A DNA stretch of 64,000 nt, taken from positions 11,649 to 75,648 of the forward strand of contig MWTC01000031.1 in assembly GCA_002066995.1 (NCBI GenBank), written 5' to 3'. The notes under the pieces were generated by a model, which saw only the letters and a program-made list of their open reading frames with translations, searched no databases and was not told the origin of the DNA. Both the position numbers and the translations under genes were made by a program. Of the stretch, positions 5,661 through 56,065 are shown piece by piece (position 1 is the first letter of the stretch; every line of letters begins with the position of its first letter). The stretch comes from Sphingobacteriales bacterium UTBCD1 (GTDB lineage: Bacteria; Bacteroidota; Bacteroidia; Chitinophagales; Chitinophagaceae).

Positions 5661-5711
5661 AAAATATATTTCTATAACTTTTTTTTTGAAAATATTTAAT
5701 TACTCCTTTAA

Positions 5712-17871: not shown

Positions 17872-18846
17872 CTGCCCTATGCCCGGCAACATCTTCCCCG
17901 GGCCCTGTGAATAGACGGGACGTTACGCCATATTATAAATTACTTCCGTTTTTATTTCCCGGGTCCCGCATATTAAATTCGTGTTTACGCAACGTTCCCG
18001 CCCGCATACAAATCCAGGAAAGGAGATGTTGCCTTCAGATTTATTTCTTAAGTATAACTTCATAAAAAAAAGTATGTTTAAATTTGAATACCATCGGCGG
18101 AAAATCTAATCACCGATGAGATTGAATATTTACCAGACAATCCAAACTCAGGGAAGGATTTCAATCACTTAAGAAAAAACGATTGCAGTTCAACGATTAA
18201 TTCACATATAAATTTTTACCGGCTCAAGAGCAAGTAAAAGGGAATTGAAATCATAAGGATTTTGCATCAAAGAATGGACATAGAAAGTCGTTTGAATGAG
18301 TAAAATTTAGCAGCATAGAAAAGGATCGTTTGGAAATATGGCAGCGGGATGAATTTATACTCAACCGCTGTCATGATCTACGTAAATGCTCCGTCTCTTC
18401 AGAAACTTCAGAGGGAAAAAAATTTTTCCTGATAAAGAGTAACCAGAAAAATTAAGAATCTCCTTACCGGGCGGGTCTTCCGCTGAACCAATCCAGGCAC
18501 TTCTTCAAAAACATTTCGCTTTTACGAAAAAGTTCCGGTAAATGAACCCTATTTTGAAAAAGAATCTGAAAATTTTTTTTTAATAACCATTTTAAAACCG
18601 GCAATCTCAAAAATCGGTTCACTCCGGCAATTTTCTAATTTATTGATTTTACCCGAATTATTAATTCTTTCCCGGGATTCGGGAATCAACCCCGGCATAG
18701 GAAAATGAAATTTTTATGCCCTGTTTTTCAACAATCGTGCAGGTATGAAGCAAAAAAAAGTTTTGAGATTTCAAATAATTCATAAATTTATTTTATATAT
18801 CAGGTTTCTGTGATATAAACTGCTTTTAAAATTAAAACTTAACAAC

Positions 18847-54265: not shown

Positions 54266-56065
54266 ATGGAAAAATTCATTGTTTCAGCGAGGAAGTACAG
54301 GCCGCAAACCTTTGATACCGTAGTAGGGCAGGCTCATATTACTACTACTTTAAAAAATGCTATCCGCAATAAACAGCTGGCACATGCATTTTTATTCTGC
54401 GGGCCAAGAGGTGTAGGGAAAACAAGCTGTGCCCGGATTCTTGCCAAAACGATCAATTGTGAACATCCGACCAAAGACGGTGAAGCCTGCAATAAATGCA
54501 ACTCCTGCAAAGCATTCAATGAGGGCACTTCGCTGAACTATTTTGAACTTGATGCTGCTTCCAATAATTCTGTAGATGACATCCGTGAATTGGTGAACCA
54601 GGTCCGGTTTGTTCCCCAGAGTGGCCGCTACAAAGTATATGTGATAGATGAAGTGCACATGCTTAGTCCCTCCGCCTTCAATGCCTTCTTGAAAACGCTT
54701 GAGGAACCACCGCCTTATGCAATTTTTATTTTAGCCACAACAGAAAAACATAAGATCCTCCCCACTATTCTCAGCCGTTGCCAGATTTTTGATTTCAAGC
54801 GGATCAATATCAATGATACAGTAGATCATCTGCAGGATATCTGTAATAAAGAGGAAATCAAAGCAGACAAAGCTTCTTTGCAGGTAATCGCTCAGAAAAG
54901 TGAAGGCTGTATGAGGGATGCTCTGAGCATACTTGATAAGATAGTCAGTTTTACCAACGGTCATTTGAATTACAGCAATACCCTGGAACACCTCAATATA
55001 CTGGATGACGATTACTATTTTAAGTTAATAGGCTGCATATTGCAGCAGAACTTATCGGGGGCATTGTTGTTGTATGACGAAATCAATCATAAGGGATTTG
55101 AAGGTGACCTGGTATTAAACGGATTTTCAGAATTTATCCGCAACCTGCTGGTAAGTAAAGATGAGAAAGTCGTCAGTTTGCTGGAAGTAGTTGAAAGTTT
55201 TAAAGAAAAATTTATTGAAACGGCAAAAAAGGTCTCACCGGCAGTTCTGATCAGCGCTTTAAATATCCTGAATGAAGCTGAGATCAGTTATAAAGCTGCC
55301 CGTAATAAAAGACTACATGTAGAACTGGCGCTTATCAAACTATGCTACCTGCAGCAAGCTATTGAACTAACTTCAGAAGACAGCACTATTGTTAAAAAAA
55401 AAGTAGTTGATGCACCGTTGGCTTTTCGCATTACAGCGATCAGGTCTTTCAATAAAGAGGTGAAAAATGAAACCTCAAATGTTCAACACAAGCCTTCAAA
55501 TGCAACACTTGTCATCGAAACAGGAAGAGTGAATAAAAATGAAAATTCATTAGTAACAGAGGAAGCAATCAACTATGCACAACAAACCGTAACCGCTGAT
55601 TCACCATCCGGCTCCAGGCTGGCTACCCTTGACAAGATCCGCAAACAATACAGGAATAATGGTACAGAATCAAATGGAGGCAGCAATCACTCATTACAGC
55701 CGGAAACTTTGCAGAAAGCATGGAACGGATATATTCATAAACTGAAGGAAACCAAAAACCCTGCGGTACCCAGCTTTGAACGCTCTTTTTTACGCATAAA
55801 AGATGCTAATTCTTTTGAAGTGGTCAGTAGTAACAGCCTGGAACAAAAATTCATTGAACATGAACGGAGCAAACTCTTCTTATTTCTCCGCCAGCAATTG
55901 CATAATAACAGCCTCCAGTATAGCGTAGTCGTAGAGGAAAACCCTGAGGAACACCTGAAACATGAAGTGAACCTTACCGCAAGGGAGCAGTTTCAGAAAA
56001 TTACAGAACAATATCCGATGGTAAAAGAACTGAAAGACCGGCTGGGCCTGCAACTGGATTATTGA
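54266..56065 (+). CDS. dnaX: DNA polymerase III subunit gamma/tau
   Basis: RPQTFDTVVGQ, Walker A GPRGVGKTS, a Cys4 zinc module (CEHP...CNKCNSC), DEVHML, and SRC. Confidence 0.95.
   Translation: MEKFIVSARKYRPQTFDTVVGQAHITTTLKNAIRNKQLAHAFLFCGPRGVGKTSCARILAKTINCEHPTKDGEACNKCNSCKAFNEGTSLNYFELDAASNNSVDDIRELVNQVRFVPQSGRYKVYVIDEVHMLSPSAFNAFLKTLEEPPPYAIFILATTEKHKILPTILSRCQIFDFKRININDTVDHLQDICNKEEIKADKASLQVIAQKSEGCMRDALSILDKIVSFTNGHLNYSNTLEHLNILDDDYYFKLIGCILQQNLSGALLLYDEINHKGFEGDLVLNGFSEFIRNLLVSKDEKVVSLLEVVESFKEKFIETAKKVSPAVLISALNILNEAEISYKAARNKRLHVELALIKLCYLQQAIELTSEDSTIVKKKVVDAPLAFRITAIRSFNKEVKNETSNVQHKPSNATLVIETGRVNKNENSLVTEEAINYAQQTVTADSPSGSRLATLDKIRKQYRNNGTESNGGSNHSLQPETLQKAWNGYIHKLKETKNPAVPSFERSFLRIKDANSFEVVSSNSLEQKFIEHERSKLFLFLRQQLHNNSLQYSVVVEENPEEHLKHEVNLTAREQFQKITEQYPMVKELKDRLGLQLDY
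55394..55410 (+). other. A9 slippery run in dnaX followed by stops in both alternative frames
   Basis: Codons 377-379 are AAA AAA AAA. The -1 frame reads AGT AGT TGA (stop 55408-55410) and the +1 frame reads TAG (55404-55406). Confidence 0.45.

What the first reader, a model, noticed from the sequence alone, without database searches (positions are those of the whole stretch)
55394..55410. dnaX contains an A9 run with immediate stops in both shifted frames: candidate gamma-subunit slippage site
Seen: codons 377-379 of 599 are AAA AAA AAA (55394-55402). A -1 shift reads AGT AGT TGA and a +1 shift reads TAG at once. Either slippage product would therefore end 0-2 residues after Lys379, at the boundary after the clamp-loader core (domains I-III) and before the tau-specific region. 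Established knowledge: E. coli makes gamma by -1 ribosomal frameshifting on A AAA AAG with a stop just downstream. Thermus thermophilus makes gamma by slippage on a run of A residues in dnaX. Inference: the same solution is used here. I am not aware of it being documented for Bacteroidota.
Basis: partly seen in the sequence, partly recalled or inferred. Interest (0 to 1): 0.6.

Follow-up and report, generated by a model that had tools for sequence, protein, structure and literature searches.

The report
Conserved poly-A slippage site in dnaX
A run of nine A's in the replication clamp-loader gene dnaX of this Chitinophagaceae bacterium is a strongly conserved slip site that most likely yields both a long (tau) and a short (gamma) protein from one gene. 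The trick was proven in Thermus and already predicted for other Bacteroidota, so this is a new member of a known kind.

Summary
dnaX (54266-56065, +, 599 aa) has AAA AAA AAA at codons 377-379 (55394-55402). The -1 frame reads AGT AGT TGA and the +1 frame reads TAG at once.

One A9 proves little on its own: about 56 sense A9 runs lie in this genome's ORFs. Conservation is the evidence. An A9-A11 run sits at the same place in 111 of 117 relatives (plus one A8) and in 62 of 91 dnaX genes sampled across the phylum. The flanking linker is not conserved. The run occurs in all three codon phases and never holds AAG. Both shifted frames close within 5 codons in 75% of genes, against 11.5% of random positions.

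Some relatives have gamma in the zero frame and reach tau only by adding or removing one A. One such layout recurs on at least 23 contigs.

No conserved RNA hairpin or upstream sequence motif is present.

Best reading: Thermus-type transcriptional slippage yields gamma of about 43 kDa beside tau of 68 kDa. This is inferred.

Antonov et al. 2013 listed poly-A dnaX in Flavobacterium, Cytophaga and Capnocytophaga, in the two-ORF form.

The parts
54266..56065 (+). dnaX coding sequence; the zero frame gives tau (599 aa, 67.9 kDa)
   Evidence: ORF list; NF011531 DNA polymerase III subunit gamma/tau, E 3.9e-209, over residues 1-598; Pfam DNA_pol3_delta2, DNAX_ATPase_lid, DNA_pol3_gamma3; molecular weights
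54266..55402 (+). Part shared by tau and the predicted gamma: clamp-loader domains I-III (to about residue 364), a 12-residue linker and KKK
   Evidence: Pfam domain III matches residues 246-364; residues 4-360 align with E. coli gamma/tau 3-357 in PDB 1jr3, 3glh and 8gj0
55394..55402 (+). A9 slippery run, codons 377-379 (AAA AAA AAA)
   Evidence: Sequence. An A8-A11 run lies at the same site in 112 of 117 relatives, and an A9-A11 run in 62 of 91 dnaX genes of the phylum sample. No AAG occurs inside the run, against 28% AAG at other conserved Lys columns
55404..55406 (+). TAG stop in the +1 frame (read when the mRNA has one A fewer or two more); product ends ...KKK* (A8) or ...KKKK* (A11)
   Evidence: Sequence; translations
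55408..55410 (+). TGA stop in the -1 frame (read when the mRNA has one extra A, or after a -1 ribosomal shift); product ends ...KKKSS*
   Evidence: Sequence; translations. A TGA formed by zero-frame ..GTT GAx.. recurs in many relatives
55403..56062 (+). Tau-only region: low-confidence linker (about residues 380-450), then helices and a confidently folded alpha/beta C-terminal domain
   Evidence: AlphaFold2 model of residues 380-599: pLDDT 52-68 for the first ~70 residues and above 90 for model residues 101-180 and 191-210, with a dip to 68 in between. Only weak fold matches to DciA, DnaA domain I and the E. coli tau C-terminus (5fku_E E 0.13; 2aya E 0.94). Precomputed Pfam label DUF8439

Best explanation
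The A9 run in dnaX is a programmed recoding site of the Thermus thermophilus type. While transcribing the run, RNA polymerase realigns the nascent RNA on the homopolymeric template, so a share of the mRNAs carries A10, A11 or A8 instead of A9. Ribosomes translate these mRNAs normally and stop 0-2 codons after the lysines. The result is a gamma protein of about 43 kDa made of clamp-loader domains I-III only. Unslipped (or +3) mRNAs give full-length 68-kDa tau, which carries the C-terminal region that in E. coli binds the DnaB helicase and the polymerase alpha subunit. Shown here: the anatomy of the site; its nucleotide-level conservation; and relatives in which tau itself requires a change of frame at the run. 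Inferred: that slippage occurs in this organism, that it is mainly transcriptional, the ratio of the two products, and that gamma has a function.
For: 1. Position. The run lies 13 codons after domain III ends and before the tau-only region.
2. Conservation. 112 of 117 dnaX genes from Chitinophagaceae, Saprospiraceae, Sphingobacteriales and Cytophagales have a run at the same place (A9 in 47, A10 in 61, A11 in 3, A8 in 1). In a sample of 91 dnaX genes across the phylum (mostly one per genus), 62 have A9-A11 there. The background rate of A>=9 on that strand outside the site is 13 per 580 kb, or 0.005 per window of equal size. Only one other A>=9 occurs anywhere else in these dnaX genes.
3. The DNA run is conserved, not the peptide. 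It occurs in codon phases 0, 1 and 2 (54, 14 and 44 genes). 12 of 112 genes do not encode KKK (for example EKKN, VKKN) yet keep the run. No AAG is used in the run, while nine conserved Lys columns elsewhere in dnaX use AAG 28% of the time. The flanking bases are not conserved.
4. The genome otherwise avoids such runs. Of 500 KKK tripeptides, 224 would be encoded as A9 from codon usage, but only 21 are. Sense-strand counts fall 492, 56, 1 for A8, A9, A10. This is the signature that Baranov et al. 2005 (PMC1088944) take as selection against RNA-polymerase slippage.
5. Stops. Both shifted frames close within 5 codons in 75% of relatives, against 11.5% of random codon positions in the same genes.
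6. Natural frame swaps. In 6 of the 117 genes, and 18 of the 91 in the phylum sample, the zero frame stops after the run and the tau C-terminus continues in another frame. Across all 24, that frame is +1A in 21 and -1A in 3. The layout of L096 recurs on at least 23 contigs from separate assemblies. Congeneric genomes differ in layout (coded genera g67 and g70). Tau is reached in either direction, which fits a mixed population of mRNA lengths rather than a one-directional ribosomal shift. This is the criterion used by Antonov et al. 2013.
7. No E. coli-type stimulators. The window RNA folds no better than shuffles (z = -0.46). In 111 relatives the upstream and downstream segments have mean z of -0.6 and -0.5, with no consensus structure and no conserved upstream motif.
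8. Precedent. Slippage at A9 in T. thermophilus dnaX gives about 50% gamma (Larsen et al. 2000, as summarised in PMC1088944 and PMC5009743).
Against: The gamma-length products are not in the 15-billion-protein collection. That is expected if the DNA is stably A9, but it gives no positive support. An A9 or A10 run always contains an in-phase A_AAA_AAA heptamer, so a -1 ribosomal shift gives the same ...KKKSS product and cannot be told apart by sequence. About 56 other A9 runs are tolerated in ORFs of this genome, so slippage at A9 may be modest. 29 of the 91 phylum-sample genes and 5 of the 117 relatives lack the run (6 of 117 counting the A8), so the site is dispensable in some lineages.
Confidence: 0.75

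Rival explanations
1. Recoding is real but translational. Ribosomes shift -1 on the in-phase A_AAA_AAA heptamer, or slide on the lysine-encoding poly-A, and terminate at the nearby stops. RNA polymerase copies the run faithfully.
For: The run contains an in-phase A_AAA_AAA heptamer. tRNA-Lys(UUU) is present and can re-pair perfectly in the -1 frame. E. coli dnaX makes gamma this way on A_AAA_AAG (PMC3711429, PMC5009743). One relative, L063, has replaced the run with an in-phase A_AAA_AAG and keeps a -1-frame stop two codons later. The -1-frame (+1A) stop is the more tightly placed one in most relatives.
Against: There is no conserved downstream hairpin and no conserved upstream sequence of any kind, both of which are needed for high efficiency in E. 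coli. What is conserved is a run of at least 9 A in any codon phase, where a heptamer would suffice. The +1 frame is also closed quickly, which a pure -1 mechanism does not require. Among relatives with gamma in the zero frame, tau lies in the +1A frame in some and in the -1A frame in others. A tRNA-Lys(CUU) is present; from my own knowledge, its absence in E. coli is part of what makes the heptamer there so shift-prone.
Confidence: 0.17
2. No recoding takes place. The lysine run is kept for a protein-level reason, such as a basic patch or a linker or protease site, and the A-richness reflects codon bias in a 41% GC genome.
For: 100 of 112 relatives do encode KKK. AAA is the preferred Lys codon at 76%. 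In Caulobacter, gamma is made by ClpXP proteolysis rather than recoding (bioRxiv 10.1101/2022.11.10.516041).
Against: No AAG occurs in the run in any of the 112 genes, against 28% AAG at other conserved Lys columns. Elsewhere in the genome KKK is encoded as A9 ten times less often than codon usage predicts. 12 genes keep the run without KKK, and the codon phase varies. Out-of-frame stops are enriched just after the run. In 24 sampled genes the zero frame ends at the run and tau continues in another frame.
Confidence: 0.04
3. The run is a DNA-level contingency tract. Replication slippage changes its length heritably and switches cells between tau-default and gamma-default states.
For: Run length and frame layout differ between congeneric species (coded genera g67 and g70). 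Lengths A9, A10 and A11 all occur.
Against: The window's exact 599-aa product, hence an in-frame A9, is found on at least 23 contigs, and no gamma-length variant is on record. The L096 layout is equally stable over at least 23 contigs. Within the window's genus, A9 differs from A10 by a G-to-A substitution after the run, not by an indel. From established knowledge of E. coli, tau is essential, so an off state would be lethal without transcript-level slippage.
Confidence: 0.04

Closest known systems
Thermus thermophilus dnaX programmed transcriptional slippage (Larsen, Wills, Nelson, Atkins and Gesteland 2000, PNAS 97:1683; summarised in PMC1088944 and PMC5009743)
   Same: Single dnaX ORF with tau in the zero frame. 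An A9 run on the sense strand. Stops close by in both other frames, so any slip that is not a multiple of three gives gamma. No dedicated RNA stimulators.
   Different: A different phylum. Here the run lies 63% of the way through the gene, 13 codons after domain III, so gamma is the bare domain I-III core of 379-381 aa. [quoted passage not shown] The Thermus case is shown experimentally; this one is inferred from conservation.
Two-ORF poly-A dnaX genes in which tau requires recoding (GeneTack dnaX cluster; Antonov, Coakley, Atkins, Baranov and Borodovsky 2013, NAR 41:6514, PMC3711429, Supplementary Fig. S3)
   Same: The same phylum-level lineage (Flavobacterium johnsoniae, F. psychrophilum, Cytophaga hutchinsonii, Capnocytophaga ochracea, Chlorobi). 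The same kind of run of about 10 A at the gamma/tau boundary. My sampling shows both layouts at the same site, with both occurring within single coded genera.
   Different: In those genes the zero frame ends after the run (gamma is the default) and tau needs a slip. In this window tau is the default and gamma needs the slip. A frameshift-finding screen such as GeneTack cannot detect the single-ORF layout. [quoted passage not shown]
Escherichia coli dnaX -1 programmed ribosomal frameshifting on A_AAA_AAG
   Same: The same gene and the same outcome: gamma ends one or two codons into the -1 frame. The shift site is lysine codons.
   Different: E. coli uses a heptamer with an upstream Shine-Dalgarno-like element and a downstream stem-loop (PMC3711429 Fig. 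1). Here there is a homopolymer of at least 9 A and neither stimulator. E. coli gamma ends near residue 430, here near residue 380.
Caulobacter crescentus DnaX processing by ClpXP (Vass and Chien; bioRxiv 10.1101/2022.11.10.516041)
   Same: It yields a short gamma-like DnaX beside tau.
   Different: It is post-translational proteolysis with no slippery sequence, and nothing in the present data points to it.

Membership tests
Thermus-type dnaX transcriptional slippage site | The gene is a dnaX orthologue encoding clamp-loader domains I-III plus a tau-specific C-terminal extension | tested here: met
   NF011531 full-length equivalog (696.5 bits, cut-off 685) and TIGR02397; Pfam domains; alignment to E. 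coli gamma/tau structures. The C-terminal domain folds confidently, but its likeness to E. coli tau domain V is weak.
Thermus-type dnaX transcriptional slippage site | Sense-strand homopolymeric A run of about 9 or more within a single ORF that encodes tau in the zero frame | tested here: met
   A9 at 55394-55402 in phase 0 of the 599-aa ORF.
Thermus-type dnaX transcriptional slippage site | Stop codons close downstream in both alternative frames | tested here: met
   TAG at 55404-55406 and TGA at 55408-55410. Only 1.2% of codon positions in this gene match this, and the feature is enriched across relatives.
Thermus-type dnaX transcriptional slippage site | The run is under purifying selection at the nucleotide level | tested here: met
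   A8-A11 in 112 of 117 relatives and A9-A11 in 62 of 91 phylum-sample genes. All three codon phases occur. No AAG in the run against 28% elsewhere. The genome avoids A9 tenfold.
Thermus-type dnaX transcriptional slippage site | mRNA population heterogeneous in A-run length while the DNA is homogeneous | not testable with these tools
The DNA side is supported by at least 23 contigs with the in-frame A9.
Thermus-type dnaX transcriptional slippage site | A gamma-size DnaX protein is made in the cell | not testable with these tools
   No proteomic data are available. The predicted products are 42.7-42.9 kDa.
E. coli-type dnaX -1 ribosomal frameshift site | In-phase X_XXY_YYZ slippery heptamer | tested here: met
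   An in-phase A_AAA_AAA heptamer lies within the run. This is inherent to any in-frame A9.
E. coli-type dnaX -1 ribosomal frameshift site | Downstream stem-loop stimulator | tested here: not met
   Window fold z = -0.46. The 60 nt downstream in 111 relatives have mean z of -0.49 and no consensus structure.
E. coli-type dnaX -1 ribosomal frameshift site | Upstream Shine-Dalgarno-like stimulator | tested here: not met
   No GGAG-like element is visible in the 20 nt upstream, and the 15 positions upstream are not conserved among 111 relatives. No dedicated motif scan was run.
Two-ORF poly-A dnaX (Antonov et al. 2013) | The zero frame terminates just after the run and the tau C-terminus is in another frame | tested here: not met
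   The window's dnaX is one 599-aa ORF. The feature is met in relatives L027, L033, L034, L037, L079, L096 and in 18 genes of the phylum sample.

The most novel reading that the evidence does not exclude
The poly-A tract is an ancient feature of the Bacteroidota-Chlorobi lineage that also acts as an evolutionary dial. Base changes in or beside the run switch which isoform is the default product: tau in frame, gamma in frame with tau at +1A, or gamma in frame with tau at -1A. These changes, together with run length (A9, A10 or A11), reset the tau:gamma ratio. Lineages, including congeneric species, have switched repeatedly because RNA-polymerase slippage is efficient enough (tens of percent) to make all three layouts viable. 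If so, Bacteroidota RNA polymerase slips at A9-A10 far more than is generally assumed, and the roughly 56 other A9 runs in this genome's ORFs would also yield sizeable truncated or alternative products.
Probability: 0.3. Interest if true: 0.55.

Novelty: new member of a known kind. Interest (0 to 1): 0.3.

Why it matters
The purpose of making two DnaX forms is still unclear more than 30 years after their discovery (bioRxiv 10.1101/2022.11.10.516041). The site is kept in about two thirds of sampled Bacteroidota-lineage genera and occurs in three interchangeable layouts. That is further comparative evidence that both gamma and tau are selected for.

There are practical consequences. Genome annotation should flag this site. 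In the two-ORF relatives, gene callers split dnaX into a truncated gene plus an orphan DUF8439 ORF. Cultivable, genetically tractable Bacteroidota such as Flavobacterium johnsoniae would allow a direct test of tau-only and gamma-only alleles.

For this window in particular, the result is a well-supported but expected instance.

Tried and rejected
- Exact-sequence look-up of the predicted 381-aa and 379-aa gamma products in the 15-billion-protein collection found neither. This is uninformative about transcripts.
- RNA structure near the run (single fold, 111-sequence z-scores, anchored alifold) found nothing. An E. coli-style stimulator was therefore rejected.
- Pfam on the tau-only part gave no family, even at E up to 10.
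- Fold search of the modelled C-terminal domain gave no match at E <= 0.001. There were only weak hits to DciA, DnaA domain I and E. coli tau. The claim that this is a tau domain V homologue therefore stays inconclusive.
- Literature searches for an experimental demonstration in Bacteroidota found only Antonov et al. 2013.
- The look-up of the -1A-type relative L079 returned one contig without DNA, so that rarer layout is not independently confirmed.
- Assembly error was rejected as the source of the A9. It was also rejected for the two-ORF layouts: L096 lies on at least 23 contigs, two genera of coded family f4 share the layout, and so do four genomes of coded genus g47.
Full report
**Observation.** The sequence at 55380-55412 reads ...acagcactattgtt AAAAAAAAA gtagttgatgc.... 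The only long ORF here runs 54266-56065 on the + strand and encodes 599 aa. The A9 at 55394-55402 is exactly codons 377-379 (Lys-Lys-Lys). After the run, the -1 frame reads AGT AGT TGA (to 55410), and the +1 frame reads TAG at 55404-55406. The predicted short products are 381 aa (...KKKSS, 42.9 kDa), 379 aa (...KKK, 42.7 kDa) and, for two added A's, 380 aa (...KKKK). Full-length tau is 67.9 kDa.

**Identity of the gene.** The protein is DnaX. NCBIfam NF011531 (DNA polymerase III subunit gamma/tau) matches residues 1-598 at E 3.9e-209. Pfam finds DNA_pol3_delta2, the DnaX ATPase lid and gamma domain III, the last ending at residue 364. Residues 4-360 align with residues 3-357 of E. coli gamma/tau in the solved clamp-loader structures. 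The run therefore sits 13 codons after the clamp-loader core. An AlphaFold2 model of residues 380-599 shows about 70 low-confidence linker residues, then helices and a confident alpha/beta domain. Fold search of that domain gives only weak matches: DciA, DnaA domain I, E. coli tau C-terminus 5fku_E at E 0.13 and 2aya at E 0.94. Homology to tau domain V is plausible but not shown.

**Is it more than chance?** A single A9 is not. My rough ORF set for this 3.76-Mb, 41% GC genome holds 56 sense-strand A9 runs. The genome does avoid such runs. Of 500 KKK tripeptides, codon usage predicts 224 encoded as A9, and only 21 are. Sense A-run counts fall from 492 (A8) to 56 (A9) to 1 (A10). Baranov et al. 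2005 read this pattern as selection against RNA-polymerase slippage (PMC1088944). Only 1.2% of codon positions in this dnaX have out-of-frame stops as close as those at the run.

**Conservation in close and middle-distance relatives.**
- I collected dnaX from 40 genomes of the same genus, family and order and 80 named loci from GTDB representative genomes. The names place the window in Chitinophagaceae (Terrimonas, Ferruginibacter, Sediminibacterium, Chitinophaga and others). The set reaches out to Saprospiraceae, Pedobacter, Mucilaginibacter, Sphingobacterium and Rufibacter.
- Of 117 usable genes, 112 have a run at the same place: A9 in 47, A10 in 61, A11 in 3, A8 in 1.
- On the same strand outside the site, A>=9 occurs 13 times in 580 kb. 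It occurs once elsewhere in all these dnaX genes.
- The surrounding linker is not conserved in sequence.
- The run starts in codon phase 0, 1 or 2 (54, 14 and 44 genes). Twelve genes encode only KK plus N or T yet keep at least 9 A.
- No AAG occurs in any run, although nine conserved Lys columns elsewhere in dnaX use AAG 28% of the time.
- Both shifted frames are closed within 5 codons in 75% of genes, against 11.5% of random positions in the same genes.

Selection is therefore acting on the nucleotide run and on the nearby stops, not on a lysine patch.

**Natural frame swaps.**
- Six of the 117 genes have the zero frame ending just after the run, giving a 376-384 aa gamma-size product. The tau C-terminus continues in another frame: +1A in L027, L034 and L096, and -1A in L033, L037 and L079.
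- The L096 layout is encoded identically on at least 23 contigs from JGI, ENA and Logan assemblies, so it is not an assembly error. The -1A case L079 could not be confirmed independently.
- In a sample of 91 dnaX genes spread over the phylum (mostly one per genus), 62 have A9-A11 at the site. Of these, 18 need +1A for tau, 43 have tau in the zero frame, and one has long open frames in both the zero and the -1A frame. The other 29 lack the run. Congeneric genomes differ in layout.
- From established E. coli knowledge, tau is the form that binds the polymerase and the helicase and is essential. These genomes therefore imply that a change of frame at the run is efficient in this lineage.
- Tau is reached by adding an A in some species and by removing one (or adding two) in others. 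This fits a mixed population of mRNA lengths. Antonov et al. 2013 used the same argument to assign such sites to transcriptional realignment.

**Mechanism.** Stimulators of the E. coli kind are absent.
- The 141 nt around the run fold no better than shuffled sequence (z = -0.46).
- In 111 relatives the upstream 45 nt and downstream 60 nt have mean z of -0.6 and -0.5. There is no consensus structure and no conserved upstream motif.
- Both tRNA-Lys(UUU) and tRNA-Lys(CUU) genes are present.

A bare homopolymer of 9-11 A is what the Thermus case uses. I therefore favour transcriptional slippage at about 0.75. A ribosomal -1 shift or sliding on the in-phase A_AAA_AAA heptamer would give the same ...KKKSS product and cannot be excluded (about 0.17). 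One relative (L063) has an in-phase A_AAA_AAG with a -1-frame stop two codons on in place of the run. This suggests the two mechanisms can replace one another at this site.

**What could not be done.** The predicted gamma sequences are not in the large protein collection. The full-length form is encoded on at least 23 contigs with the same A9. That argues against assembly error and against DNA-level length variation.

**Comparison with what is known.**
- The Thermus thermophilus A9 site was proven experimentally (Larsen et al. 2000).
- Antonov et al. 2013 described two-ORF dnaX genes with 10-A runs. Their Supplementary Fig. S3 lists Flavobacterium johnsoniae, F. psychrophilum, Cytophaga hutchinsonii and Capnocytophaga ochracea beside Chlorobi and Coraliomargarita. 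Poly-A recoding of dnaX in Bacteroidetes is therefore already in the literature.
- What I could not find in print is the single-ORF, Thermus-like layout in this phylum, or any experiment in this phylum.
- Earlier notes of this scan record the same phenomenon in more than 140 genomes. They agree with this reading but are not independent evidence.

**Verdict.** The site is a new member of a known kind. Interest is modest (0.3). The site is real, ancient and under strong selection, but a specialist would expect it. Its main value is for annotation and as comparative support for the view that bacteria need both DnaX forms.

Noticed in passing
L063 (Ginsengibacter sp. MAG, JBDTSD010000304.1), dnaX codon 377: The A-run is replaced by CC A_AAA_AAG, the exact E. 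coli slippery heptamer in the right phase. A -1-frame stop follows two codons later (...KKAT*). This may be a switch from homopolymer slippage to a heptamer-type ribosomal frameshift at the same site. It is a single MAG.
   Followed up: partly
G000 contig C7:176905-178252 (+), outside the window: This is the only A10 run inside an ORF of the genome. It lies at nt 1153 of a 448-aa gene for what looks like a TolC-type outer-membrane efflux protein (named by eye, not searched). Either slip would truncate the last ~50 residues.
   Followed up: partly
window 55403-56062 (DnaX residues 380-599); also L079 and L215-L220: The tau-only C-terminal domain carries only the precomputed Pfam label DUF8439. 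In two-ORF relatives, gene callers annotate it as a separate 126-206 aa orphan ORF. Its fold resembles the KH-like domains of DciA, DnaA domain I and E. coli tau only weakly.
   Followed up: partly
L027 (G013, same family, 1.4-Mb genome): A strongly reduced genome of the same family has the two-ORF layout: A10, gamma 381 aa in the zero frame, and tau of 593 aa only with one added A. It is the only copy seen, so assembly error is not excluded.
   Followed up: no
L033 (G025), L037 (G030), L079 (CAILUU010000055.1): In these three relatives tau lies in the frame reached by removing one A (or adding two). This is the opposite direction to the -1 DNA-level frameshifts reported for the published two-ORF dnaX genes. 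L079 could not be confirmed independently.
   Followed up: partly
window 5679-5687 (-) and 18573-18581 (-): These are the two other A9 runs in the window, giving 3 in total against 9.9 expected from shuffles. I did not check whether they are coding or conserved.
   Followed up: no
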